Below, one piece after another: positions 1 to 17,516 of a stretch of 64,000 nt of DNA. The notes below the pieces were generated by a model, which searched no databases, was not told the DNA's origin, and saw only the letters and a program-made list of their open reading frames with translations. Each line of letters opens with the position of its first letter. Within the stretch, counting starts at the first letter, position 1. The position numbers and the translations under genes are program-made. The stretch comes from Lama guanicoe (lineage: Eukaryota): NCBI GenBank assembly GCA_013239625.1, contig MU056187.1, forward strand, positions 1,054,001-1,118,000. Direction: 5' to 3'.

Positions 1-720
1 GTCGGGGCATGGACGGGTAGGGGTGCAGATGGTGTTAGAAGGGGAGAACCCAACTTCCAAGCCCCCTCCCCAAAGGCCCGCAGGGCAAGGACCGCAGCCA
101 CGACTGCGCGCCGGGAGGGGGCGCGCTAAGCTGGGCGCGGAAGACTGAGGGTCCCCCCCGCCCCCGCCAACCCAGTCAGGCAAGGCGTGGCTGCGCGGCC
201 CCCTCCCGGCGCCGCGGGCGAGTTCCCACGCTCTGCGCCCCGCGCCCCTGCCGACCGGTCGGGCTGGTTTCAGCCTCCGCCCGCGCCCCGCCCAACTGCC
301 TGGGCTTTGCGGGAGACCGCTGGGGGCGGGGGGGCGGGGGAGAGGGGACAGGCCCGAGAGGCGAGGACTAGGAGACAGAGACAAGGGTTTGGGAGCCTGC
401 TTTAAAAGGGAGAGTTAGGGAATTCATGGAGGGGTGATAGATTGGGGCGCCCCTGAAAGGACACGAGTATTTGGGACCTTGAAGGAGACTAGGGTGTGGG
501 GAGGGGGGTGTGGGGTATGGTTCCCACGGCCCAGCTCTGGGGACTGAGCCCGCTCCACTCCGGGAGATCCGGACTCCGGGCGGACGCGCGCGCCAGTGAT
601 TCACCTGTCGGGGGGCGGGGCAGCCGCGGGCGCTTTCACCTGTCGGCAGCATTCCAGGCGCGGAGCTCCACTGCAGAGGCGCCCGGCCCCGGTGGCCTGG
701 CCTCCCAGGTGAGTGGACCA
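1..720. promoter_or_regulatory. NOTCH3 intron-2 CpG island / enhancer with CSL(RBPJ) sites and E2-boxes
   Basis: High CpG density; TTCCCACG at 223-230 and 521-528; CACCTG at 602-607 and 637-642, CAGGTG at 706-711; GC boxes. Confidence 0.75.
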
Positions 721-954
721 AAGTGTGTGTGTAACTTCAAAAGGGCTCTCAAATCACCCCAGACCTACCCAAGTTGGGTCTGGCACACTTGCTGAATCAG
801 TGTATACATTAATGAATAGATGAATGGCTACTGGGTGACCTGCTATTATTAATGACAATATTATAAAAGGAACCAAACATTTCCCCATAACCTTGAGACG
901 ATCTCCCTTTTGGCATCTATTTCCAGTGTCCCTACCATTATTATTATTCCTAAT

Positions 955-1650
955 AATAATAATCTCATTTATTGCGCACTCACTCTATGCCCAGCATTAT
1001 GCTGCATTCCCCATATGAAAAGTCTCTTTTAATTTTTACAATCAACCCCATAAAGGGACTATTCTTGCCCCATCTTCCAGATGCAAAAACTGAGGCTCAG
1101 AGAGCTCAAAGCACTTGCTCAAGGTATCCAAGAGCCGAGAATTCAAACTGAGCTCTGTTTGCTTCTGCTCAGCAATTTCTCAGGCCCTGCCCTGCTCCCC
1201 CAACCCTCTGCCTTTCCTTGTATTATCCAACAACTGCATTCTTGCCACAAGCCAAGGAGAAGTACCCTCATTCACAGATCAATGAGGTTCAGAATGGGAA
1301 AGTGACTACTAACTCAAGGTCATACAGCAAGAAAGAGGCAGAGCAGGGCTCCTGTGCCCCTGCCACTAAATCTTGGGATGTGGGAAGGTGCAGATGCTGT
1401 ACCCACTTACCCACTACTGCCAAGCTACCGCCACTGGTCCCTTAAGATTTATTGATTAAATAATAACTACCTCCACCAGGGGATTTACACGTGACCTTAG
1501 GCAACCGAGAACTCTGTGAAGTTGGGGTTGTTGGGCCCATTTTCCAGACTAGGACACTGAGGCTTAAAGAGTTTAAGTCCCAGGCAGTCAGCAATGTGAT
1601 GTGGGATTTGAACCAGGACAGACAGACTCCAGAGCCTCTGCTTCTAACTT
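955..1650 (-). mobile_element. Cluster of about 3 MIR SINE fragments (about 955-1165, 1260-1360, 1500-1650)
   Basis: Reverse MIR core motifs such as 'cagatgcaaaaactgaggctcagagag...cacttgctcaaggt' and 'cccatttt...actgaggcttaaagagtttaag'. Confidence 0.7.
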
Positions 1651-1885: not shown

Positions 1886-4608
1886 CTGGGTGGGGGTGAA
1901 GGAAGGTAGGGGGGTCAGGCAGGCACCCAGGAACCCCAGCCCAGAGTGAGACTCCCTCCTTTCCTCCCTCAGGCAACAGCTGCGCCAGGCTGGGGGCGTC
2001 TCTTTGAGTACCGGGAGCACCCCTATCCACAGTTCCCACGACCCCCCCACCCCCGCCCCGGCCCCAGCTGTTGGGGTTGCAGCTGTCCCTGCCAGCTCGA
2101 GCCCTGGGAACCACAAGGCAGGGGTGGGCAGGAGGAGGGGCTGACTAGTGCCAGATGTGAGGCTCAGAAGCTGCCAGAATGGGGGTGGTGGTGCTAAGAC
2201 AGGAAGTGAGGGTGCTGCCGAGTGTGGAAGGGAGATCTGGGACTGTGTGCCCAGATCCTGGGGTTGTGAAGGGGGCAGGGGTGGGGAGTCTTGGGACCAT
2301 GGATCTTTCTTCCCCTGATGCTGGGCATCTTCTCCAGCTGGGCAGGCCTGCATGCTAGCTCTGAAGAGAGAAGCCAAGGCATGTCCTCCATGTGCAGCCA
2401 GAACTGGGTGTTGCAGGGATAGGGTATGTGTTGAAGGGAGGGGCAGCTGGCATAAGGTGTGTACTGCTCTGTCCAGCGTCCCCATCCCTGAGGGCTGTGT
2501 CCCTCTGGGGTGTGACCCAGTCTAACTGTCAGATGGTCAGGGGTGTGGCGGGGTGTGAGCCAGTGGAGACTTGTGTGTGCCAGCAGGTGTGGGGCCACTG
2601 CATGTCTGTGTGCCCGTTTGTGCCTGTGTGAAAGAGGGGTGGAGAAGATGAGGAACACAGAGAGATAGAAGAGAGAAAACCAGAAGCAGGCAGACCCAGA
2701 GGGAAGGAGGGAAGGAAAGAGAGAGAGATAAAAAAGGGAGAGAGTGAGAGACAGAACAAGTTAAGCTGCACAAGAGAATGCAGCTACTTGGCTTGTGTCC
2801 CCTTCCTTGGGGGACAAGCGGACATGACACTACTACCCAGACAGGGACCAATGGGTGTTTGTAAACTCACACTGGGGGCCACATGACACAAGCCATGGGA
2901 CTTGCTGAGCTGTGGGCCCTGTGAGCCACATGTGCGTTTTCATGATCTGCATGGGTGTAGAGATGTGTATGAAATATTTGTAGGCTGGAACTTATTGTGT
3001 GTCCATGTATGTGAACCACGTATCTGGGAATACATCTGTGTGTCTGTGTGTGACCTGTGTTTGCATGGGTGTGTCCGTGTGTGGGTTGAAAGTGCCCATT
3101 GGCCTGCATGTATATGAGCTGGCTGCAGGCATGTCCTTGCATCTGTCTGTGTGGACCTGAATGTGTGCAGGCAGTGTGTGTGAGGCCTTGGACTGTGGTG
3201 CACAGTAAGTGTAAACATGTGTGACTGTGCATGCATGTGTGAGCATGTGTGAGCTGGGTGTGCACATCTGTGGGTGTATTCTGTGTGGACTCTCTGCCTG
3301 TGTGTGCTCGTGTGCACGTCGGCATCTCCGCACGTGTGATCCAGGATTGTGTGTGCCTGAGTGTGTGACAGGCCATGTGTGTGTGTGCACTGGCCTCACG
3401 AAGGCGGCTGCTCCTGCCCAGTCCTGCCCCACCACTGGCCCCGGGCCGGGCTGAGGAGGCTGGTTCCCTCCCGCAACCCCCACCCCTCCCAGCGCCGAGT
3501 CCCACAGCAGCGCCTAGGGACCCGGGTCAGGGCCACTCGGCCCGCGTCCCTCCTCTGGCGGCCAGTCCTCCCTTGGGGGGTTGCGCCCCCGCAGCCCCCT
3601 CCCGGCCCCGCCGCCGTCCCGCTTTGTCTGGCAAAGAAAGAGCTAGGGCGGCCGGGGGGAGGGGGTGTCTAGACGGCGCGGCCATTGTCCCGGGCGGGGG
3701 AGGGGAGAGCGGAGAGGGGGAGAGAAGAGGGCGTGCGCTCTCGCCCCCTGCCCTCCGCTCCCTTCCCAAGGCGGGGACTGGGTCCCGGGGCCGCCAGGTC
3801 CCGGCGGCCAGGGAGGGAGCGGGGCCGCGGGCGGGGTAAGGGGCGCGGGCGCCGTTCTGGCTCCAGCTCCAGCTCCGGCTCCGGGTCTTGCCGCGCTCCG
3901 GCCTGGGAAGTTTTCTCCGAGTTTAGACCTCCGAGAACTTCGCGCCCCCTCCCCGCCCCCCGCCCGGCCAGGCCTGCCCGGAGTGTTGAAGGAGGGGGGT
4001 TGTGTGCGAGGGGCCACCGGCCTGGGGGTACTTGGGTTCCAATCGTGACCTTCCCAGGACTCCAGACGGGCGTGGGTTGTGAGAGAGCCTCGGACTCTTG
4101 GTTACCCCCCGCTAATCCCCGCACCTCGAGCTCTCAGTCCCGGACTCCTGAGTCCCTTCATTCCCAGCCCAGATCTCTCCTGGGCCCCAGTTCCTCGGGC
4201 CTCTGGGGTCCTGACTCCCCTCTACATTCCCAGTTCTGAGTCCCTGGCCCCTGGGACTGGCACACAGTGCCCGAGCTCCTGCACTCCCTGCCCCTGTTCT
4301 CTGGTCCTTGGTTCCCAGGACCCCCAGCCCCAGACTCGGGGGGGCCTTCCTTGCACTCCGTTCTTACCCTTCCCCCACCACCCACCCCATCCCGCCCGCC
4401 AGGTCCCAGCCCCTCACCTGCAGCCCCCAGCCCCGCTAGCAGCAGCAATAGGGGCAGCGTCCGCACGGACGGCANNNNNNNNNNNNNNNNNNNNNNNNNN
4501 NNNNNNNNNNNNNNNNNNNNNNNNNNNNNNNNNNNNNNNNNNNNNNNNNNNNNNNNNNNNNNNNNNNNNNNNNNNNNNNNNNNNNNNNNNNNNNNNNNNN
4601 NNNNNNNN
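1807..4608 (-). CDS. NOTCH3: NOTCH3 5' part (exons 1-2; gene continues left of the window; ATG hidden in N-run 4475-4608)
   Basis: Signal peptide ...PSVRTLPLLLLLAGLGAA splices to APHCLDGSPCANGGRCTQLPSREAACL (EGF repeat 1), matching the NOTCH3 N-terminus; syntenic with EPHX3/BRD4. Confidence 0.96.
2880..3390. repeat. Degenerate (TG/CA)-rich low-complexity tract in NOTCH3 intron 1
   Basis: Interspersed tgtg/gtgtg/catg units over about 500 bp. Confidence 0.75.
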
Positions 4609-5977: not shown

Positions 5978-7180
5978 TTTTTAAACATTTTATTTTGAAA
6001 TAATTTAAACATAGAATAGTGCAATTCCCATATGCCATTTATTCAAATTCACCAATTCTGCCAAATTTGTCTTATAATTATGTACATATTTTTGAGAGCA
6101 ATTTGCAGGCATGATGTTCCTTTGCCCCCAAATTCATCACTATGCGTTTCCTAAGATCAAGGGCATTCTCTTATCTAAGCATACCACAGTTTTCACCCTC
6201 TGTCCATATTCAAAGTTCTCCCATTGCCCCAGTAATACCCACTAAAGCATATTTCTTTGCTGGTCAGGATCTACCCGTCGACCACGTGCTACATTTGCTT
6301 GTTATGTCTCTTGAGGTCCTTTAATCTGCATCAGTTCCTCAGCCTTTCATTGTCGTTAGTGACACTGACAATTTTGGAGGGTCGAGGTCATTTGTTTTGT
6401 AGAACAGCCCTTAGCAGGCTGACCTGCTGGTTCCTCAGGACCAGGTTCAGGTTGTATGTCTCTGGCAGGAATTGCTGAAGTGATGCTGGTCCTCCCTGGT
6501 GCGTTGTGTCAGGAGGAACCTGATGTTAGTTCCCAACTGATGTTAACTGATGTTTAACTGCTGTTAAACTTTGATCACTCAAGAGAAGTCGGCTCAGTAA
6601 AGGTGTGGTAAAGGTACCATTCTCTTCCCCATCTCCCCTTGTAATGAATAAATATCAGTATCTTGTGGGGAGATACCTTGAAACTGCATGACTATCTTGA
6701 GGCCTGTCAAACTTTCACCCATTTTGGGCATTTATTGGTGATTTTCTCTGATGAATTTTTAAAATTGAGATAAAATTCACATAACATAAAATGAGCTATT
6801 TACCATTGTGAAGTGTACAGAGTGGCATTTAGTGCAACCATCACCTCCATCTAGTTCCAAGATGTTCTTCTCAACCCTGAAGGAACCCCTGTGCCTATCA
6901 GTAGTCACTCCCCAGTCCCCCTCCCCCATCCCCCGGCAGCCATTAATCTGCTTTCCATCTCTATAGATTTACCTGTGATGAACATTTCACACCAGTGGGA
7001 TCATACCATGTGTGGCCTTTGGTGTCTGGCTTTTGTCACTACGCATAGCATTTTTGATGTTCATCCACGTTGGGGCATGAATCCATGCTTCATCCCTTTT
7101 CACAGCTGAGTAATGTCCCATTGAATGGCTGTACCACATTTTGCTTATCCATTCATCTATGAATACTTTGGATGATTTTT
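5978..7180 (-). mobile_element. Old L1 (L1M-type) 3'-end fragments, probably two elements (about 5978-6750 and 6755-7180)
   Basis: AT-rich; 'ttttattttgaaataattt' and 'ttgagataaaattcacataacataaaat...tctgctttccatctctatagatttacct' resemble reverse L1MC/L1MB 3' UTRs. Confidence 0.65.
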
Positions 7181-7920
7181 AAACACTGGAAGAGGAAGAT
7201 GAAGGAGGCAGAGAAGTACCATTAGAGTGAAAGAAGAATGAAAAGCCAAGGGTGAAAGCTGAATAACTGACCAGGGCCCGGCATCAGAGATGACCCCCCA
7301 GCCCTACTGAGGCTGACAGGAACTGAGGTTGTTCCGCCACTCCCAATTTAGGAGTGCAGCTCCCATCTAGGAGGGGAGTAAATGGTGCCCACCTTACAGG
7401 TCAGCCCCCATGGAGGTGGGTATCTGCCCATCTTACGGTGAATTGCCAGGTGCTTTCCAGAGTGAGATTTGAACCCAAGTCTTGAGTGACTCCAGGCCAT
7501 GTGGAGTGAGAGTAGTGGGGACAGGGTGGGGATTGGGCAGAGAACAGGAGGAAAGTTGCATAAGAAGGGGCATAGCCTGACTCACTGTGAGTGTGCTGAG
7601 TCACCAGGCCCATGGGGCAGGCACAGTGTGAGTCCCCACCGCCGCCACCATGGCCATCACCCCAGGAGGAAGGCCAAAGCCCCCTCCCCTGCTTTCAGAG
7701 CCCTCATTCACCTGGCTTGGACCCTCTCCAGTTCCTCCCGCCTCCCTCATCATCAGGTGGAGTCAGGCTCCATCCTCACCCAGCAGGCTTTGACCTCTCA
7801 CAGCCTTTGCTCAGGTTCTTCTTTCTACCCAGGACACCCGGCTAGTTAGGAGGACCCTTTTGCTTCCTTCTCAGGCAGGAACTCACAGCAGATTTGTTCT
7901 CTTTAAAAAATGCATTTCCT

Positions 7921-8029
7921 GAGGGGAAGGGGAGTAAAACTCAGTGGCAGAGCCTGTGCTTAGCATGCGCAGGGACCTGGATTCAATCCCCAGTACTTCC
8001 ACTAAAAAAAAAAAGTTAAAAAAACAAAA
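7921..8029 (+). mobile_element. tRNA-derived SINE (Vic-1-like, camelid type) with poly(A) tail and TSD
   Basis: A-box-like CTCAGTGG and B-box-like GATTCAATCC; A-rich tail; direct repeat GCATTTCCT at 7912-7920 and 8030-8038. Confidence 0.8.
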
Positions 8030-9384
8030 GCATTTCCTAGTAGAATGTTTTTTTTTTTTTTTTTACTTTTGGGGTGTCTGTATCCAGCTCTTTCTCCCCT
8101 CTATACTGGAGGTTCCTCAGGGGTCAGGCATTGCCCAGCATGAGTCAGGCACTGAGGGGGCAGCATAGTGGGGCTTGGTGACTCAGGAAGTGGCTGAATG
8201 AGTTGGGATGCTGAGCCCAGAGGAGCCACCACAGGGGACCCAGACCACTCTCTTCAGTACCATTCTAGAGGTCTGGGGGTCCAGAAAAGGATCTGGAGGT
8301 CCAGGAGCAAAGGTAGAGGCTTTAGTAGTGGGGCTAGCTCCTCCCCTGACCCATCTAAGAAAGAACTTTCTGCTGGAATAGCTGCTCTAAGAGGTGCTGA
8401 ACTCCCCATCACAAGGAGCAACCAAGAACCTGTACACACATTTTGCTTGGCAGGAAGTCCAAAGCCTGCAACTCTGCTGATCCAATGACCTGTGGCAGAC
8501 AGAAACGGAGAGAGAGCAGTAATGGTGAAAACACAGGCTGAGTACAGCATGGGGGGAGTGGGGACAAAAGGAAATTACGTATACAAAGCCCCTACTGTGT
8601 TCCAGTCCCTTTCTGAAGCCCCCAAAACTCCAAGGGCACCCACTTAGCAAGGCAGAAGTTGAGGGTCCCCTCTCCAGGTTTCTGCTCTGCCTTCCAGCCC
8701 TGGTGGCAGGAATAGCCCAAGGTGTCTGGATCCTTGGAGGACAGGACATTCAGAGCAATCATTCCCACGGCTTTGCAGCAGGCAGCCGCCCAGTTCCCAA
8801 TGTGGTGGGGGTAGGGGTGGGCTTGAGCCGTCTCCCCTGCCCCTGCCTGCCTGCCGCCTTGGCCAGGGACTGCATTTCTCCTCAATGAGCTCAGTCCCCA
8901 GGGATGCGGGACCTGGGGCCAGGCCAAGACACAGCTGCTGGGCCCAGGCCCGCTGACCAGGAACCTGAGAACGTGCCCTCAGCTTGTCCCCTTGGGACCA
9001 CAGTCCCGTTCTCTATACACAGAAGCTGGGGCCAGGCCCTCGTGCCCCAGCAGTGGGCCATGGGAGCCCAACAAGAACTGGCAGGAGGGCTGCTGGGTCT
9101 GGGGCCTGGGCAAGAGTGGGAAGGCTGGACCCCAGGGGCTGTGGGCTGCAGACCCAGCCGGCTGTCCTGTCTGCTACCTCTCTGGAGCTCTCTCACACTC
9201 AAATCCTCCATGGCTCCCCATTATCCAGAGTGACATCCTCCTCACATCGCCAGTTTTCCTTCCCTGTCTCCCAGCCTTCCCAGTCTTTGCATAGGCTGTG
9301 CCCACTGCCAGGAATGCCTTTCTCATACTCAGAAGACTCCTTTCACCTGGCAGCTCATTCTGACCCGCCAGCTCCCCTCACTTC

Positions 9385-9900
9385 GTTCAGTCATTCGACA
9401 AACATATACTGAGTAACTACTTGGTGTAAGACCCTATTATAGGTAGAGGTGACAAAGACAGCCATTTCCTGCTCTGATAGGGGAGACAGATAAGAAACAA
9501 GAAGACAAACAAATAAAAACCAGCAAGTGAGACAGAGATGGAGAGATTTCAGTGTAGGGGGTCAAGACAGGCCTCGCTGACAAGCGAACATTAGAATTAA
9601 GACCTGGAGGAAGAGAACAAGCTATCAAGGCAAACAGTCTGGAAGCACGTTCCAGGGAGAGGGAACAGAAAGTGCAAAGGCCCAGAGGAGGAAAGAGTGG
9701 GTGGATAAGAGGAACAGCAAAGAGGCCAGGGTGCTGGGTGCAGAGTGAGCAAGGGGTGGGAAGTGAAGGAAACTGATGGGGCCAAGTTCCAAGGGGCCAG
9801 AGGGTCTGGGATTGTATCAAAAGCACAGTAGACACCGCTGGAGGGTTTCAACACAGGGGAGATGATCTGATCAAGGCTGGAAAAGATAACACCGGAAGGT
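9385..9900 (-). mobile_element. L2 LINE fragment
   Basis: Begins with reverse L2 3' end 'tcattcgacaaacatatactgag', followed by typical purine-rich L2 body. Confidence 0.65.
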
Positions 9901-12168
9901 CTGTCATTTCTTCTCCCAGGGAAACTTCCGAGGTTTTCCATGGTCTCCTCTGGCTCTCATGGTCCCTTCCATCTCAGCTCCTACCCCACTTTGTGATCCT
10001 ACATGTCTCCTACATCATTCTGAGCTCTACGCACCTCTGTCTTGCTCGCTGCTGGATCCCCAATATCTAACATAGTGCCTGACATCCAGTAGTCAGTTGA
10101 ATGAATGAATGTGCCCAACACAGCTCAGGGGAAGAGCAAGACCCAGAAGCTGGAACCTGAAGCTGCCCAGAGCCAGCCTTTGAGATGTCCCTTTCTGAAC
10201 ACAGACATGTCTGGCTTCCATTAGATCAGGGCTTGATCAGAGGAAGGGATCGGGGCTGCTGGGGCTTCCTGGAGGAGGAGTGGGTGTGAGGACTGAATGT
10301 GGAAGAAAGGGGAGTGAAAAGAAGGGAACTCATGTCAAATCAAGTACCTACTGGCTCTACAGCTCTAGGCAGAAGAGGGGAGGCCATACCCCATCCTTTT
10401 GGCCGGGGTGGGGTGTTCCCTGCTGTAAGACCCTCCATTGGGCAGAACATCCAATGGATGTCTTGGCCTCATAAGACCTGGGCCCAGACCACTCCAACCT
10501 TCCTTGCCCATGGCCTCACCCAGGAACCCATCTCCACCTGCTCACCTCTGAACTTTGGCACTCTGATGTCCTTTAACTGCCTCCTTGCCTCCCTGGCTCC
10601 TGAAACTTGCCTTCCTTCTTCCCCACAGGTGTGATACTTGTCTCTCCCCACTCCCCTGGCCACCTCCTGCTTCGGAGAAGGGGAGCACCTCCCTGGGCTT
10701 TTCATTACTTCCTCCCTTGGCCACAGGTCGAGGTCTCTTCCGTGATAAAGTGAAATCTGCAGCAAGTGCTCATCTCACACACACACCCCTTCCCCAAGCT
10801 CCTCTTCCCCACCTCTCACCCCCCCCCGCCACTGGCTCTGTTCTTCCCTGCTTCACTGTTCCGCGCCCTGAGAGGCTGACCTCTACAGGCTGTATCAATG
10901 GACATCCTTGTCCTCTGGCTTCCAGGTGGGTTTGGCCAATAGGAGGCACTGGTAGAAGGTGAAGTGGGGATGAGGGGAGCGAACAGGATATTAATCCTCC
11001 TGTATCTTTCCCTGTAGGGTCACCACTTTGACTCACTGTGTCTCTTGACCAAAGGCCCTGTTCACACAAACCTCTCTCTGGGCTCTGCTAACATCCTTCC
11101 TTCCCTTTTCCCAGTCAGGGGGACCCAGAGATAGTAATGGCTCTCCAGGAGTGCTTATCGATCCCTGATGTTTTCCCCAAGCCCTGCCCACTGTATATGA
11201 TCCCTGTAGCAGCCCTGCCTCAAATTGCCCCATTTGAATGTGCCAGTTGTTCCCTCCAGGCTCCCGACTGGAGTCCCTAGTCTTCCCTCCCATCCCTGCT
11301 TAACTGCACTCAGAGTATGCAAGCCTGCTGTCCTCAGCCCCCACTCTCAGGTTTCCTCCCTCACGATCTACATGGCTCAGTCCTCTCACACCTGTCTGCC
11401 CCGCCCCCCAGGTCTCTCTCCTCTGCCTGTCCCTTAGATGTTGAGGGGGTCTCCAGGGCTCAGTCTCCAGTCTTGTTCTCCTCTCTGTTCTCGGGAGACT
11501 TCACTCTCTCTCCCAGCTTCACTGACCTTGTGTCCCACCACACACTGATGCTTGCTGGGACCATTCATCTTTAACCCCTTAGAGGCTTCTATGTTCCTGC
11601 CTCAGGGATCCAGCCACAACAGATTGAACATACTCTAAACCTGTTTCTGGCCTTCCCTGTGTATCTGCTCCTCCCCCAAGTGCCTGGACTTGGACCTCAT
11701 CCTCTACTGCCTGGACCATGTCCATCCGCCTTCCAGGCCTCCCCAACCTCACACTTCCCCCCTAGTCCTGCCCCCTCACCAACCCCCAAGTAGTATTCCA
11801 GACACACAGATATGTCCTGGACCTTCCCCTGGGGCCCCCATCACATTGGGGATCAAGCTCCTGGCCTGGTGTTCGAAGCTCTTTGCAATTCCACTTCTTC
11901 CTCTTCCAAACTTTCCTCCCGGTCTCACAGAAATGCTAAATCACTCGTGAATGAGAGGCTTCCGTGGATTGGGGCACATTCTTGTCAGGTTGAGCTCTAA
12001 GGCCACCTCCTCCAAGCAGTCTCCCCTCTTCCCCCAATTTCCTTATTCCACTGAGGCCTGACCACATAGGGCTGGGAGTATCGACCCGGCTTCTTCTCTC
12101 CCGTCCCTCCTCTGGTGCGGGGCCCCGGCTTAGAACTGGTAGCAGGGACAAGTAAATGAGTGCGTGTG

Positions 12169-12217
12169 TGAATGAATGAATGAATGAATGAATGAATCAA
12201 TCAATCAATCAATGAAT
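12169..12217. repeat. (GAAT)n/(CAAT)n tetranucleotide microsatellite
   Basis: Directly visible tandem array. Confidence 0.9.
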
Positions 12218-12239
12218 GTAGAGGGAGTAAACGATGGAA

Positions 12240-12820
12240 GGCGGTCTGGAGGCGGGAGCTCAGAGCCCCAAGAGGGAGAGGCTGAGCCTGGCAGGGGCCT
12301 CAGCCGGAGCTGTCCGAGTCCAAACCCTCAGGGTGCCGGCTCCCTTGCGAAGTGATGCGCTCTCGGAGCCCGTCGGCCGGAAGAAAGACGCGCCCTGATT
12401 GGTTCAGGTTGAGAGGACGGGCTTCAGCCGAGCTACGAGTCGCTATTGGCTTAATTGCCAGGACTCCCCCCAATCAAATCGATCGCTTCCCTTCCTCCCC
12501 ACCCCACCGCACTGCATTTCTCCCGCCTGCAGCCGCGGAGGCGGAACACAGCGCCTTCTCGTTACCTTAGCAACCGTCAGCGGACCCTGTCGCCCCGGTA
12601 ACTCTCCGAGGCCTCCCGTCAGCCTTCGCCTGGGCCCCTCTGGTCACCCAGACAACCACTACCCGTTCCGGTTAACCATCAGCCCTTTCCCCGTCACCTT
12701 GGCAACGGTCACCAGACCCATCGCCCCCCGGACACACCATCCTCGTCCTGCACGCAAGCTTCGCCCCAGACTGAGGTCTCGGGTTCCCTCCTCCTCTTGC
12801 CCATCTTCCCGGCCTTAGAG
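12240..12820. promoter_or_regulatory. Orphan CpG-rich promoter/enhancer-like element with four RFX X-boxes and three CCAAT boxes
   Basis: X-box-like 14-mers at 12561, 12589, 12643, 12693; ATTGG/CCAAT at 12398, 12445, 12470; CCGGAAG at 12377. Confidence 0.7.
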
Positions 12821-13966
12821 AGGGTACTGCTCCCACTTTGGCAGGGGGTGAGAATGGGTCGGGCCCGAGGGACCGTCTAGCTCTGATGCCGTACGCAGCA
12901 CTGGGCCTGTATCCTAGTTCTCAGTCTTGCGTAGGACTGTTCAGCCGCCACAGGGAACTTCTCAAAATGCAAACCATGTCCCTCCCCTGCTGAAAACCCT
13001 CCCCTGGCTCCCCTTGAGAATCAAATCCAAACTTTTCGAAGCCCCTGGCGGTCTGGCTGTGGCCTCTTCTTCTGTGCTACACCTCGTTTGCTCTATCCTA
13101 GCAGCCACTTTTCTCCATGTTGATACTCCAGTAGCCCAATCTTAGTCCAGCCTCTGACCTTCCTATTTACTGCCTCCCACTCGTGAAAATTCTGTCCCCC
13201 AGCCAGAGAAGCCTTTCCTGGGCCCCATCACACAGCTCTCTATGCCTATTCTCTGTTAACTCCAGAATAGGGGCTGTGTCCTGGTTCACACTCTATCCCC
13301 AGCTCCTGACACATATAATGAGTGAAAGGATTTTATGTCGGGGACAAGGGAGGGCAGAGGCGGGGGACCAGTAGGCAGGCTTTGGCCAGACAGGCCCATC
13401 TCAGAGATAAGAGAATGTGTTTCTGAGGTCCGCTGGGTCCCCAGACTGATTCATCATGAGGCTGCAAGTCAGTGTTCCCAAAGGCCAGGCAAAGGCTGGG
13501 AGATAGAAGTTAATGCTGTGACCGGTCTGGGCTAGGTTCATCCTCTACTTGTACGGCTGTCATTTAGAGGCTGGAAGGAGGAGTCCCCAGAAAGAATGAG
13601 CAGAAACTGTGGTTAATTTAGAGTAGAGGATTCTAGAAACTAGAGAGACAGGCCTCAGACCCCAGATGGCCATTCAGGGAGCAGGTCCCTTCCTGTGTGG
13701 AGTCCAGAATCTCACATATCCTAACAGGGCCGAGAGCTGTTTTCCCATGGATCTGAGACAGGGGTCCCAGGGAGCTTTCCCAGGCTGTGGCGAGAGAACT
13801 TGACCTTACAAGGCCTGGAGTCATAATCGAGAGGGAGATCATGGGAGCTGCCCAGGGCCTGGCTGGAGAGGAGTCTGGACATCCACCTACCTGCCTATGA
13901 CGGTCCTCCCTTGGTGAGGTGCTCCGGCAGGGACGCCCCCTCTTCTTAGACTAGGAATACCCTCAC

Positions 13967-14131
13967 CAGCACTGTCCTATAGAACCTTCTATGCTGATGT
14001 GGCAATCAAGCCCTTGAAATATGGCTAGTGTGACAGAGGTATTGATTTTTCCATTGTATTTCATTTTAACTCATTTGCATTTAAATTGAAGTAGCCAGAT
14101 GTGGCTACAAGCATCGTATTGGACAGAGCAG
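13967..14131 (+). mobile_element. MER3-like hAT-Charlie non-autonomous DNA transposon
   Basis: Ends 'cagcactgtcctatagaac' and 'gtattggacagagcag'; internal 'cttgaaatatggctagtg' and 'tagccagatgtggcta' resemble the MER3 consensus. Confidence 0.75.
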
Positions 14132-14498
14132 CATTTAGCTGAAGACTCAGACTGGAGGTGGAAGCCAGGGACAGAAAAGTCAGAGTTTCTGGTTTGTGCA
14201 GCTCTGGGGACTGACTTTGGCCAGAAGAGTGGGGCCTCGTGGAGGGGAAGAGAAGAGGTAGGACACTCAGCATCTGTCTCCACAGAGAGGCGTACCTGGT
14301 TTCAGGCTCAAAGAACTTGCTCACCCGTGCATGCACTCACGCACATGTATGAGCATCTGGGGGTGGGGTGTCTGAGAGCACCCACAGAAGCACTTGTGTT
14401 CAATTTAGGAGTTCCACACCTGTGTGACATCAGGGGTCCACCCTTGTATCTACGTTCTGTAAACTCCCAGGTGCATGTAGGCCAGTTAGCAAGGGCCA

Positions 14499-14724
14499 CT
14501 AGTCCAGCAGGTCTTGCAAGAAGGCCCACATATACTGGTGCATTTCCTTTGGGTTGCTCTGTGGGATCCAGTGCCCCACACCTGGCAGGATGTGGGTCTC
14601 CAGCCGGCCGGGCACAAAACGGCTGCTGATGGCCTCCACCAGCCCCAATTCAAAATATGGGTCCTTCTCCCCCCACAGCAGCAGTGTGGGCATGGCCAGC
14701 TCCTGGGGCTCCAAGGGAAAGTTC
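14499..14724 (-). CDS. EPHX3: EPHX3 last coding exon (NFPLEPQEL...QDLLD*)
   Basis: TAG at 14501-14499; WGEKD and GHW motifs. Confidence 0.96.
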
Positions 14725-17516
14725 CTGTGACCAAGACAGATAGACAGACAGGCAGAAGGATGGCTGGCTCCCCGCTCCACCCTACCCTAGGCCCCACAAC
14801 CCTCCAGAGCTTCTGCCTGGGGTCTGGTCTCACCTGAAGATGTTTCGGTAGTAGTTGAGGGGCCCAGTGAGGCAACCGGGCTGTGAGAAGTCATAGAGGA
14901 AGGCCTCGAGCTCATTGGGGGTCAAGTGTGGGATGCCCCTCTTGCGGTGGGTGAGGGTGGTCTTCAGGATCTGGGGACACAGCAGGACTCTGGCTTCAGT
15001 CACAACCCACAACCCTCCACCCATCCCCGGGCCTGCACCCTACTGCACCTGGAAATCAGACATGGACAACAACTTCTCGGGCAGCCAAGGAAGCTGGAAC
15101 AGGAACACATAGTTGGAACGGAAGAACTGGCCGATGTGGCGCAGAGAGTAGTCTAGGGGGAGGGGAAGGCAGGCATCAGGCCTGGGCCTGGGTGGCCCCA
15201 TAACTCGGCGCTCTACACACACCCAGGCCAGGAACCCAGAGATGCCAACACTCATGAATGCCACTGCCGCCTGCCTGAGCCTGTGAGGACAGGCACCAGC
15301 TTCCTTCTCTGCCAAGTGGTCACTGTGCCCATAGAATGGGGGTGCTTCCCCTCACAGCTCCCGGGAGCCCCACAGCCACTGGAGTGCTTCCCCTGCCCAG
15401 GCTGTGATGCATTTCCCCCACTTCACTCAGCAAACATTTATTGAGCACCTATGGTGTACCAGTTCCTGTTCTAGACCCTGGAGACACAGCAGTGAATGGA
15501 AGAGACAAAACTCTTTTGCCCTCAGGGAGCTGGAGACCAAGACACACAAGAAACAACATAAAGAAAGCTTATTGGGGGGGAGGGTAATAGCTCAGGAGTA
15601 GAGTGCATGATTAGCATGCATGAGGTCCTGGGTTCAATCCCCAGTGCTTCCATTAATAAATAAGTAAGTAAGTAAATAAATAAGTAAAAATAAACCTAAT
15701 TCCACTCCCCCCCCAAAAGAAACAAGAAGAGAGAGGGCATACAACTATGATTATAATGCTGGGAATTAAAAGCAGGTGATGACATCTCAGGCTATCGTAG
15801 TTGCTTTTAGTTATCTCTGTCTTCCCTGCCAGAAGAAAGACATTTAACCTCTCTTGCCTCCACTTCCTGACTGGGCCATGGGGATAACACTTTCACGAGC
15901 CCAGGAGGCTTGTGTAGGTTACTGTGACAAGCAGGCTCCTTGTCAGAGCAACTGTAACCTGTAAGTGCTCAAAAAAGTGTGGGTTACTCCTAGGTGTATT
16001 GTCATGGACGGTAGATTGGGTAGGAGAATCATGTGGGAAGGGACCCAGGTTCACCACTGTGCCTCCAGTCCATGTAGTGTTGACTGGCGGACAGAGAAAT
16101 GCCGTCAGACACGCGCGCGCGCACGCACACACACATACACACACATCTCTTCATAAAGGTACATCCCAGCATCCCAGACTCCCCAACACACCTTGGTACA
16201 CTGACATGGGGGCAGCGCTGACCACCACCATCCGCTCCACCAGGGATGGGTAGTAGATGGAGAAGTTCCAGGCTAGGAGTGCACCCCAGTCATGGGACAC
16301 GAGGATGCACTTGGGGTAACCTAGGGGAGGGGTCAGAAGAATCAGTATAAGTGAGATGCTAGGTAGAAGTGAGGCAGGGATGAGGGAGGCCAGTGCTGGG
16401 ATTGGGGAACATCCCCACCCAGGCCCAGAATGACATCCTGAATATCTGTCATCAGCAGGTCAATGGTGTAACAGTCCACATCCTTCGGTGCATCAGAGGA
16501 GCCGTATCCCCGCAGGTCCACAGCTACAACATGGAAGCGGCTCTGGAACTCCCAGAGCTGGTAGCGCCAGGAGAACCTGCCAGGCGGGCCAGGGAGGGAA
16601 GTTGAGTCAGGGTCCCCAGGCTGCACCTCTGCCCTATGCCTAGCAGAGACCCTGGGTGACCTCACCTTTCTGCCTTGGATTTCCCAGAAGGGAGGATGGG
16701 GAGCCCCAATCTGAGGGTGAGGCCATGTGTGCCCTGGATCCAGGGCAGCCTCAACATGGATACTTTTTGTCCCAACCTTTCAGACCCTCTGGTCCTCATT
16801 TGTCTTCGCAGAACCCCTGTTAGCGAGTGCCCTATATGGGCCCTATACACTTTGCATCCCTAGTCTACCCAGCCTTGTCCTCTTCTCCTGGGTGCTCTGG
16901 TGATCTGAGCTCCACCTCCCCCGAGCCTTCTGCGTCCAGACCCCTTGGCCTCAGACGTATCAGTTCTCGGGTATGTAACAGTCCACATCCCTTGTGTAAC
17001 ATTCTGACATACCAGTTCTCCGGGAAGCCATGTAGAAACAGCATGAGGGGCCCATTGCCACATCCAGCAGAGACATAGTGCAGGCGCAGACCCGAGCTCT
17101 GGGGGAGGGCACAGTCTGAGTCCTGGGAAACCCTTCTTCCCTAGGCCTGAACACCTTCCCTTTCCCCCTGCCCAGATTTGGATTCAACCATTTGCCACCC
17201 GGGGCTGGCTCCACACGGCCCCCCTCCCAGGTTCCTCGACCTTTGAAACCCGATGGCACCCCCGCGCGCTCACCTTGAGGGTCAAGAAGCAGTGCTCGCC
17301 CAGCGTGGGGTCGCTCAAGCAGGCGGGTGGGGTGCGCCGGGGACGCCCGCAGCAGCCGCGTCGGGGCCTGCATAGCACGTGCGTGAGCGCGATGCAGCCA
17401 TAGACGGCTGCGGCCACCAGAGCCGCGGAGAACACGAGGCTCCACATGAAAGCGCGAAGCAGTTTCAGAGTGAGGCGCGACGGCGCCAGCAGCGCTGTCA
17501 CCACCAGCTCGGGCAT
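14499..17516 (-). CDS. EPHX3: Epoxide hydrolase 3 (alpha/beta hydrolase ABHD9), 7 coding exons, 360 aa
   Basis: Exons 243+86+158+129+104+137+226 = 1083 nt, all GT-AG, frame intact; HGFP oxyanion motif, HDWG nucleophile, GHW catalytic His. Confidence 0.98.
14834..14970 (-). CDS. EPHX3: EPHX3 coding exon 6 (ILKTTLTH...YYRNIFR)
   Basis: AG/GT boundaries, phase consistent. Confidence 0.96.
15049..15152 (-). CDS. EPHX3: EPHX3 coding exon 5 ([10 protein letters not shown]...SDFQ)
   Basis: AG/GT boundaries, phase consistent. Confidence 0.96.
15420..15560 (-). mobile_element. L2 3'-end fragment
   Basis: 'cactcagcaaacatttattgagcacctat' is the reverse L2 tail. Confidence 0.65.
15574..15725 (+). mobile_element. 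tRNA-derived SINE (Vic-1-like, camelid type) in EPHX3 intron 4
   Basis: GGGGAGGGTAATAGCTCAG...GGTTCAATCCCCAG, (TAAA/TAAG)n, ACCTAATT...CCCCC tail. Confidence 0.8.
16109..16145. repeat. (CG)n(CA)n alternating purine-pyrimidine microsatellite
   Basis: acacgcgcgcgcgcacgcacacacacatacacacaca. Confidence 0.85.
16192..16320 (-). CDS. EPHX3: EPHX3 coding exon 4 ([17 protein letters not shown]...SVYQ)
   Basis: Translated by hand; catalytic Asp in HDWG; AG/GT boundaries. Confidence 0.96.
16419..16576 (-). CDS. EPHX3: EPHX3 coding exon 3 (FSWRYQL...DVILGLG)
   Basis: AG/GT boundaries; DLRGYG motif. Confidence 0.96.
17013..17098 (-). CDS. EPHX3: EPHX3 coding exon 2 ([29 protein letters not shown])
   Basis: AG/GT boundaries; HGFP motif. 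Confidence 0.96.

What the first reader, a model, noticed from the sequence alone, without database searches (positions are those of the whole stretch)
12240..12860. Orphan promoter-like element with four RFX X-boxes and three NF-Y boxes between NOTCH3 and EPHX3
Seen: a CpG-rich patch not attached to any exon found here. It has four 14-bp imperfect palindromes in 146 bp: GTTACCTTAGCAAC (12561), GTCGCCCCGGTAAC (12589), GTCACCCAGACAAC (12643) and GTCACCTTGGCAAC (12693). There is also a shorter GTTCCGGTTAAC (12665), CCAAT boxes (12398, 12445, 12470), an ETS core (12377) and a candidate + strand donor GGG|GTGAGA (about 12848). Established: this palindrome type is the RFX1/2/3 X-box, and X-box plus CCAAT layouts typify ciliary and spermatid promoters. 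Inference: an unannotated RFX-driven promoter or enhancer. It could drive a transcript antisense to the EPHX3 3' end, or act about 8 kb upstream of NOTCH3, linking the ciliogenesis programme to a Notch receptor involved in ciliated/secretory fate. This is the strongest unexplained signal in the window.
Basis: partly seen in the sequence, partly recalled or inferred. Interest (0 to 1): 0.7.

Follow-up and report, generated by a model that had tools for sequence, protein, structure and literature searches.

The report
Conserved RFX-site array upstream of NOTCH3
Between the NOTCH3 and EPHX3 genes lies a single-copy CpG island with four RFX-type and three NF-Y-type motifs that also stand in the matching human DNA; it is likely a control element for NOTCH3 rather than the start of a cilia gene, and the protein reported from the human copy has no intact counterpart here.

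Summary
The motifs are real and far beyond chance: 3 of the 4 strict X-boxes in 64 kb lie within 146 bp here, plus one with one mismatch; 0 of 5000 shuffles give even two. The patch is a single-copy orphan CpG island. It is the orthologue of a human ENCODE enhancer whose unstable + strand RNA carries the 279-aa 'eORF7' (Vlasov 2025, PMC12667400). All three CCAAT boxes and the X-boxes are kept in human, and homologous ORFs from other mammals fit X-boxes at the same spacing while switching frames. So the DNA motifs are conserved, not the protein; the human start codon and frame are absent here. Mouse ependymal ChIP-seq (PMC7498320) has RFX1 and RFX3, but no RFX2, peaks between Notch3 and Ephx3 (orthology by position only). 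Notch3 rises 2.1-fold in Rfx3-null cells, which argues against RFX switching Notch3 on there. The ETS core and splice donor are not supported. It is not the known NRF2 NOTCH3 enhancer. Verdict: a new, unusually dense member of a known kind (RFX/NF-Y orphan CpG-island element); target gene and sign of effect untested.

The parts
12240..12860 (.). Orphan CpG island, single copy; orthologue of the human enhancer at hg19 chr19:15,334,128-15,334,967 (eORF7)
   Evidence: GC 0.64, CpG o/e 0.71; one genome match; P0007 (279 aa, Arg 10.0%, Lys 3.2%, as eORF7) aligns to 12312-13061, E 2.9e-44
12398..12402 (-). CCAAT (Y) box 1
   Evidence: present in the human sequence, by eye
12445..12449 (-). CCAAT (Y) box 2
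   Evidence: present in human, 47 vs 48 bp from box 1 (by eye)
12470..12474 (+). CCAAT (Y) box 3
   Evidence: present in human, 25 bp from box 2 in both (by eye)
12561..12574 (.). X-box 1 (strict), followed directly by a conserved CGTCAG (half-CRE-like, overlapping a MYB-like CAACCG)
   Evidence: 3 differences in human, all at degenerate positions (by eye)
12589..12602 (.). X-box 2 (strict)
   Evidence: 2 differences in human, both at degenerate positions (by eye)
12643..12656 (.). X-box 3 (one mismatch)
   Evidence: 2 differences in human; 54 bp from box 2 in both (by eye)
12665..12676 (.). Short imperfect palindrome; not an X-box by the consensus; conserved in place, contains a MYB-like CGGTTA
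   Evidence: absent from the one-mismatch list; 11 of 12 letters kept in human (by eye)
12693..12706 (.). X-box 4 (strict)
   Evidence: first 9 letters visible in human, 2 differences in the spacer; RHPGN in P0007 fits a strict box 50 nt after box 3
12377..12383 (+). ETS core; lineage-specific, probably incidental
   Evidence: the human sequence has an A-run here (by eye)
12845..12853 (+). Candidate splice donor; weak, not supported
   Evidence: 3.2 bits, 12 of 440 GT sites as good; homologous ORFs run across it; eORFs are described as intronless
12303..13067 (+). Stretch matching human eORF7; here no start codon, at least four frame changes and several stops

Best explanation
This is a single-copy orphan CpG island with a conserved array of four X-boxes and three CCAAT boxes that is likely bound by RFX1/RFX3 and NF-Y and likely works as a promoter-like distal control element of NOTCH3, making only an unstable, unspliced RNA. 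Shown: the motifs, their excess over chance, their conservation in human DNA, and the loss of any shared reading frame. Reported by others: an exosome-sensitive + strand RNA from the human copy, and RFX1/RFX3 peaks in the mouse Notch3-Ephx3 interval. Inferred: RFX dimers on the X-boxes and NF-Y on the Y-boxes keep the island unmethylated and open in many cell types and let polymerase fire weakly; the island contacts the CpG-island promoter of NOTCH3 8 kb away and sets or limits its response. In ciliated cells the net effect of RFX3 is more likely a brake or nothing than activation. Long ORFs over it (human eORF7, a sperm whale gene model) would be by-products of GC-rich, stop-poor DNA.
For: Motif excess. 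Among 7 loci of the 2.05-Gb genome with two strict 14-bp boxes 8-30 bp apart, only this one has three strict boxes within 200 bp of the pair. Human DNA, by eye on the 400 of 840 letters shown: 121 of 142 columns identical from box 1 to box 4; 8 of 9 differences inside the boxes fall on degenerate positions (P 0.005); spacings 28/29, 54/54, 50/50. Of 9 homologous protein clusters, 5 fit all four boxes at spacings 27-29/54/50, 2 fit three, 2 fit two; shuffled proteins give 0.11-0.24 fits each. Frames differ among lineages. Human copy is an ENCODE enhancer with bidirectional poly(A)+ RNA, up at least 2-fold after Mtr4 knockdown, linked by EnhFFL to NOTCH3, EPHX3 and ILVBL. Mouse peaks RFX1_2889 and RFX3_805 lie 13.0 kb from the Notch3 start and 9.6 kb from the Ephx3 start, 40 bp apart; the Y-box is enriched in RFX1-3 peaks. 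RFX sites protect a CpG island from methylation and orphan islands act as enhancers (review PMC8286816, passages).
Against: No deletion, reporter or contact data link the element to NOTCH3; the EnhFFL link is a database prediction. The mouse peaks are matched by position only. Notch3 is up in Rfx3-null cells (logFC +1.09, P 1.9e-6), against simple activation, and the authors regard up-regulated genes as possibly indirect; Gfap, Olig1 and Olig2 rise too. The main NOTCH3 enhancer in lung cancer cells is another element. The pair pattern itself is not strongly enriched genome-wide (10 matches against 6 for the reversed control). The protein homologues were found by similarity to this very frame, and 'fits an X-box' after back-translation is weaker than DNA. 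Three CCAAT boxes upstream of a CpG island look more like a promoter than an enhancer. NF-Y binding was not seen in any data.
Confidence: 0.5

Rival explanations
1. It is the true promoter of a tissue-restricted non-coding RNA (testis or ciliated cells), antisense to the EPHX3 3' end or the relic of a lost gene, with no role for NOTCH3.
For: Three Y-boxes then four X-boxes on a CpG island is promoter anatomy; human RNA and the sperm whale model LOC129391577 are both on the + strand; a pyrimidine tract ending in CAG at 12532 and MYB-like sites beside the boxes.
Against: The human RNA is unstable, intronless and was found in HEK293T cells; no RFX2 peak in the ependymal table; the donor is weak and not kept; no Rfam family; no paper on an EPHX3 antisense RNA among the 9 listed (titles and abstract starts only).
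Confidence: 0.25
2. It is an RFX3-dependent silencer or promoter decoy that turns NOTCH3 down as cells become multiciliated.
For: RFX1/RFX3 peaks at the syntenic place and Notch3 2.1-fold up in Rfx3-null ependymal cells, Ephx3 not listed as changed; RFX1 recruits repressive enzymes at other genes (abstract starts); NOTCH3 favours secretory over ciliated fate (review passages).
Against: Up-regulated genes as a set lack X-box enrichment and glial markers rise too, so a change in cell mix explains it; Notch3 is not listed for Rfx1- or Rfx2-null cells; the human copy is transcribed and catalogued as an enhancer.
Confidence: 0.15
3. The conserved unit is a protein-coding gene (eORF7 and its relatives).
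For: Ribosome footprints and two unique peptides for ORF7 in human stem cells; a 204-aa RefSeq model in sperm whale; ORFs of 151-279 aa in 9 clusters.
Against: No ATG at the position of the human start; at least four frame changes and several stops here; each lineage uses other starts and frame paths; + strand stop triplets are half as frequent in the patch as in the flanks (1.85 vs 3.59 per 100 nt); ORF7 is not among the three ORFs with purifying selection.
Confidence: 0.04
4. Neutral or repeat-derived sequence with chance motifs.
For: Region picked after seeing the motifs; CpG islands can look conserved.
Against: 0 of 5000 shuffles; single copy; differences avoid fixed positions; 85% identity to human against an assumed neutral 70-78% (P 2e-5 to 0.02).
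Confidence: 0.04

Closest known systems
Human enhancer/eRNA carrying eORF7, hg19 chr19:15,334,128-15,334,967 (Vlasov et al. 2025, PMC12667400)
   Same: Orthologous DNA, same strand, same place beyond the EPHX3 3' end; all Y- and X-boxes present
   Different: That paper treats it as a primate coding ORF and reports no significant homology outside primates for its ORFs; the passages read do not mention RFX or the motif array. Here the ORF is absent and the motifs are what is kept.
RFX1/RFX3-bound distal sites of mouse ependymal cells (Lemeille et al. 2020, PMC7498320)
   Same: X-box with Y-box; peaks RFX1_2889 and RFX3_805 in the Notch3-Ephx3 interval
   Different: Most such sites hold one box or 2-3 within 50 bp; this has four over 146 bp; no ciliary gene starts here; no RFX2 peak; the neighbouring gene rises in the knockout
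Orphan CpG islands acting as promoters or enhancers (review PMC8286816)
   Same: Intergenic CpG island, conserved, weakly transcribed, next to a developmental CpG-island gene
   Different: Built around a dense homotypic RFX array; methylation state and activity not measured here
MHC class II S-X-X2-Y module (RFX5/CREB/NF-Y; layout recalled)
   Same: X-box, a half-CRE beside it, and Y-boxes in one element
   Different: Full palindromic boxes of the RFX1-3 type, four copies, Y-boxes 91 bp or more upstream rather than just downstream
NRF2/CEBPB NOTCH3 upstream enhancer (Okazaki et al. 2020, PMC7679411)
   Same: Same intergenic interval, acts on NOTCH3
   Different: Defined by AREs, 15 kb from the EPHX3 end in human; no ARE in this patch; its likely counterpart is at 7578-8185 of the window

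Membership tests
RFX X-box cluster | Palindromic GTNRCC-N0-3-RGYAAC (consensus recalled) | tested here: met
   3 perfect, 1 with one mismatch; the 12-mer at 12665 fails
RFX X-box cluster | Constraint on fixed positions across species | tested here: met
   8 of 9 human differences at degenerate positions, by eye, P 0.005; 5 of 9 protein clusters fit all four boxes
RFX X-box cluster | Bound by RFX in vivo | tested here: inconclusive
   Mouse RFX1 and RFX3 peaks at the syntenic place; identity with this sequence not shown
Orphan CpG island | At least 500 bp, GC 55% or more, CpG o/e 0.65 or more (thresholds recalled), away from annotated starts | tested here: met
   621 bp, 0.64, 0.71; about 8 kb from NOTCH3 exon 1, 1.6 kb past the EPHX3 stop
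Orphan CpG island | Unmethylated, H3K4me3 or H3K27ac marked | not testable with these tools
   Human copy is an ENCODE candidate enhancer; no marks seen directly
RFX2/RFX3 ciliary or spermatid gene promoter | X-box at the start of a gene that falls in RFX knockouts; RFX2 or RFX3 bound | tested here: not met
   No conserved gene downstream; no RFX2 row for Ephx3 or Notch3; Notch3 rises. Testis peak list not held, so testis binding is open
MHC class II S-X-Y module | One X, X2, then Y about 20 bp downstream in fixed order (recalled) | tested here: not met
   Y-boxes lie 91-163 bp on the other side; four X-boxes
Translated eRNA ORF / de novo gene | ATG-started ORF over 300 nt on the enhancer RNA | tested here: not met
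   + strand ATGs at 12234 and 12355 give 54 and 71 codons; none at 12303
NRF2 NOTCH3 enhancer | Overlapping AREs about 10 kb from NOTCH3 and 15 kb from the EPHX3 end | tested here: not met
   No ARE/AP-1 match between 11770 and 13319; position differs
LTR or other interspersed repeat | Many genomic copies | tested here: not met
   One match for 12200-12900; that search skips very common words, and no repeat library was available

The most novel reading that the evidence does not exclude
A pan-mammalian four-site RFX array is a direct brake on NOTCH3: as RFX3 rises in differentiating multiciliated cells it loads this element and turns the receptor down, locking in ciliated fate; the human 'de novo protein' eORF7 is overprinted on this switch.
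Probability: 0.15. Interest if true: 0.7.

Novelty: new member of a known kind. Interest (0 to 1): 0.38.

Why it matters
NOTCH3 dose matters in airway fate choice and in cancer, and one upstream enhancer has been dissected in the paper read here; this gives a second, sharply defined and easily mutated element with a named factor family. It also offers a clean caution for de novo gene claims: the human eORF7 lies wholly over an older motif array, so its apparent conservation and long frame can come from regulatory constraint on GC-rich DNA, and any knockout of the ORF must spare the X-boxes. As a class, RFX/NF-Y CpG-island elements are well known, and the human locus is already catalogued.

Tried and rejected
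RNA in this clade: the run search listed 24 runs for 12230-13700, 7 on record as RNA. Four were laid on 12230-12950: X1 and X2 laid nothing; X6 and X5 one 151-letter contig each at depth 2.6 and 4 over 12369-12534, no joints. All are contigs, a filter may drop records, and DNA carry-over was not controlled, so this neither shows nor excludes transcription. Orthologous DNA from metagenome host carry-over: none by protein patterns (303 candidates, none confirmed) or DNA pattern. Rfam: nothing in the patch. Tandem repeat origin of the boxes: no array in 12240-12860. RFX2 testis supplement: no Ephx3, Abhd9, Notch3 or chr17 rows, and no peak list seems held. RFX7 supplement could not be read; the eORF paper's figure PDF with the ORF7 alignment was too large and may bear on how far homology was seen. 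Bacterial promoter scan is irrelevant. Literature searches listed no paper that ties RFX to this element or to NOTCH3 directly; most hits were seen only as listings. Earlier scan notes: nothing nearby or in relatives; two unrelated notes. Rejected: splice donor, ETS site, a fifth X-box at 12665, a conserved protein, identity with the NRF2 enhancer.

Full report
Observation. Against the recalled consensus GTNRCC-N0-3-RGYAAC three boxes are perfect (12561, 12589, 12693) and one has one mismatch (12643); the 12-mer at 12665 is not within one mismatch. The 64-kb window has 4 strict boxes, 3 of them here. In 5000 dinucleotide shuffles of 12240-12860 none had two strict boxes and none had four boxes at one mismatch or less; 82 had three CCAAT/ATTGG, so the Y-boxes alone are only mildly unusual. 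The patch is 64% GC with CpG o/e 0.71, has one match in the own genome, no tandem array and no Rfam match. In the whole 2.05-Gb genome, 7 loci carry two strict 14-bp boxes 8-30 bp apart (10 strand matches against 6 for the reversed control, so a pair alone is not remarkable); only this locus has three strict boxes within 200 bp of the pair, and it and one other are CpG islands. Wider gaps were not searched.

Setting. NOTCH3 exon 1 ends near 4419 on the - strand (its start is masked), exon 2 lies near 1885-1806, and EPHX3 stops at 14499 on the - strand. The element is about 8 kb upstream of NOTCH3 and 1.6-2.3 kb past the EPHX3 stop. The genome is a non-primate placental mammal; the closest named homologue is from sperm whale.

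Human orthologue. A search for NOTCH3, EPHX3 and enhancer led to Vlasov et al. 2025 (PMC12667400; I saw sections 5 and 6, passages, and rows of supplement S1). Their ORF7, hg19 chr19:15,334,128-15,334,967, 279 aa, lies on an intergenic ENCODE enhancer with bidirectional poly(A)+ RNA, rises at least 2-fold after Mtr4 knockdown in HEK293T cells, is described as intronless, and is linked by the EnhFFL database to NOTCH3, EPHX3 and ILVBL; two unique peptides were found in stem cells. The supplement shows the first 400 of its 840 letters. Compared by eye, it matches the window's + strand from about 12303 to 12701. All three CCAAT boxes and the four X-boxes are present (only 9 letters of box 4 are visible). 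Spacings, window/human: Y1-Y2 47/48, Y2-Y3 25/25, Y3-X1 91/82, X1-X2 28/29, X2-X3 54/54, X3-X4 50/50. From box 1 to box 4, 121 of 142 columns are identical (P 2e-5 to 0.02 for an assumed neutral identity of 70-78%), and 8 of 9 differences within 51 box positions fall on degenerate positions (P 0.005). The ETS core is not kept. A tool check agrees: database protein P0007 (279 aa, Arg 10.0%, Lys 3.2%, the values of ORF7) aligns to 12312-13061 with E 2.9e-44.

DNA, not protein, is conserved. Two protein searches returned ORFs over this DNA in 9 clusters, one named (sperm whale LOC129391577, XP_054936463.1), the rest unnamed. After back-translation, 5 of 9 clusters fit a strict X-box at all four places with spacings 27-29, 54 and 50; 2 fit three and 2 fit two; the whale protein has one further fit elsewhere. 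Shuffled proteins give 0.11-0.24 fits each, and for the 8 of 10 proteins with three or more fits 0 of 500 shuffles reached the observed number. These hits were found through this same frame and a fit is weaker than DNA, so this is support, not proof. Starts and frame paths differ among lineages; the human path needs at least four frame changes in the window and meets stops, and the window has GCC where the human ATG aligns. Stop triplets are about half as common in the patch as in the flank, which makes long ORFs easy to get. ORF7 is not among the paper's three ORFs with purifying selection, and the paper found no significant homology outside primates.

Binding and effect. In mouse ependymal cells (Lemeille et al. 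2020, PMC7498320; section 19, passages, supplement rows) peaks RFX1_2889 and RFX3_805 lie 13.0 kb upstream of Notch3 and 9.6 kb downstream of the Ephx3 start, 40 bp apart, and are the only ones listed between the genes; no RFX2 row names either gene. This fits the element's place but was not checked by sequence. The Y-box is enriched in peaks of all three factors, and most sites hold one box or 2-3 within 50 bp. Notch3 is up in Rfx3-null cells (logFC +1.09, P 1.9e-6) and not listed for Rfx1 or Rfx2; Ephx3 is not listed. The authors see up-regulated genes as possibly indirect, and Gfap, Olig1 and Olig2 rise as well. So RFX3 does not switch Notch3 on in these ciliated cells; it brakes it or acts indirectly.

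Not the known enhancer. The NRF2/CEBPB NOTCH3 enhancer (Okazaki et al. 2020, PMC7679411; passages) has AREs and lies 15 kb from the EPHX3 end. This patch has no ARE; ARE/AP-1 motifs cluster at 7578-7603 and 8141-8185.

RNA in this clade. Inconclusive. Two of four laid runs had one read-length contig each over 12369-12534 at depth 2.6-4, without joints; details under Tried and rejected. The donor at 12848 is weak and homologous ORFs run across it.

Mechanism. Shown: motif array, excess over chance, single copy, conservation in human, no shared ORF. Reported elsewhere: unstable human + strand RNA; RFX1/RFX3 peaks in the mouse interval. Inferred: RFX dimers and NF-Y hold the island open and unmethylated (RFX sites protect another island from methylation; review PMC8286816, passages), allow weak transcription, and act in cis on NOTCH3. 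I put RFX-bound, constrained regulatory DNA at about 0.9, action on NOTCH3 as a promoter-like enhancer or tuner at 0.5, a stand-alone non-coding promoter at 0.25, an outright RFX3 brake at 0.15.

Novelty. A new member of a known kind. The human locus is catalogued and the mouse peaks sit in a supplement; nine literature searches listed nothing that joins RFX, this element and NOTCH3, within a library that lacks most subscription papers. What is new is the four-box array with fixed spacing, its link to eORF7 and the direction of the Notch3 change. Interest 0.38.

Noticed in passing
window 7578-7603 and 8141-8185: Clusters of AP-1/ARE-like motifs (TGACTCA, GCTGAGTCA, TGAGTCA); likely counterpart of the NRF2/CEBPB NOTCH3 enhancer of PMC7679411; not aligned to human.
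   Followed up: partly
window 1491-1505: The only other strict X-box of the window, in NOTCH3 intron 2.
   Followed up: no
window 1-800: CpG island inside NOTCH3 intron 2 with several CAGGTG/CACCTG E-boxes; possible intragenic enhancer or promoter.
   Followed up: no
window 6731-14499, - strand: No AATAAA or ATTAAA on the - strand between the EPHX3 stop and 6731; EPHX3 probably uses a variant signal, and read-through could reach the element.
   Followed up: no
window 7930-8001 and 15581-15652: Weak tRNA matches; probably heads of tRNA-derived SINEs (inference; the first is followed by an A-run).
   Followed up: no
window 11933-12004 and 12527-13013: Sperm whale model LOC129391577 maps here in two blocks on the + strand; the window has stops in the first block and in the frame over box 2. 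Suggests some transcript or prediction in whale.
   Followed up: partly
window 12234-12877: A close relative (P0001, 94.5% identical over 165 aa) has a 215-aa ORF from the ATG at 12234, reading through the stop at 12396 and one frame change: an independent long ORF on the same island.
   Followed up: partly
L005 centre (G000:C5752 near 16,125,490) and L004 centre (G000:C5550 near 2,090,100): L005 has four X-boxes at one mismatch or less and three CCAAT boxes but is CpG-poor; L004 is a CpG island with an X-box pair.
   Followed up: no
window 12534: One contig of run X5 leaves the window here with 39 unrelated letters; no splice signal fits; probably a chimeric read.
   Followed up: no
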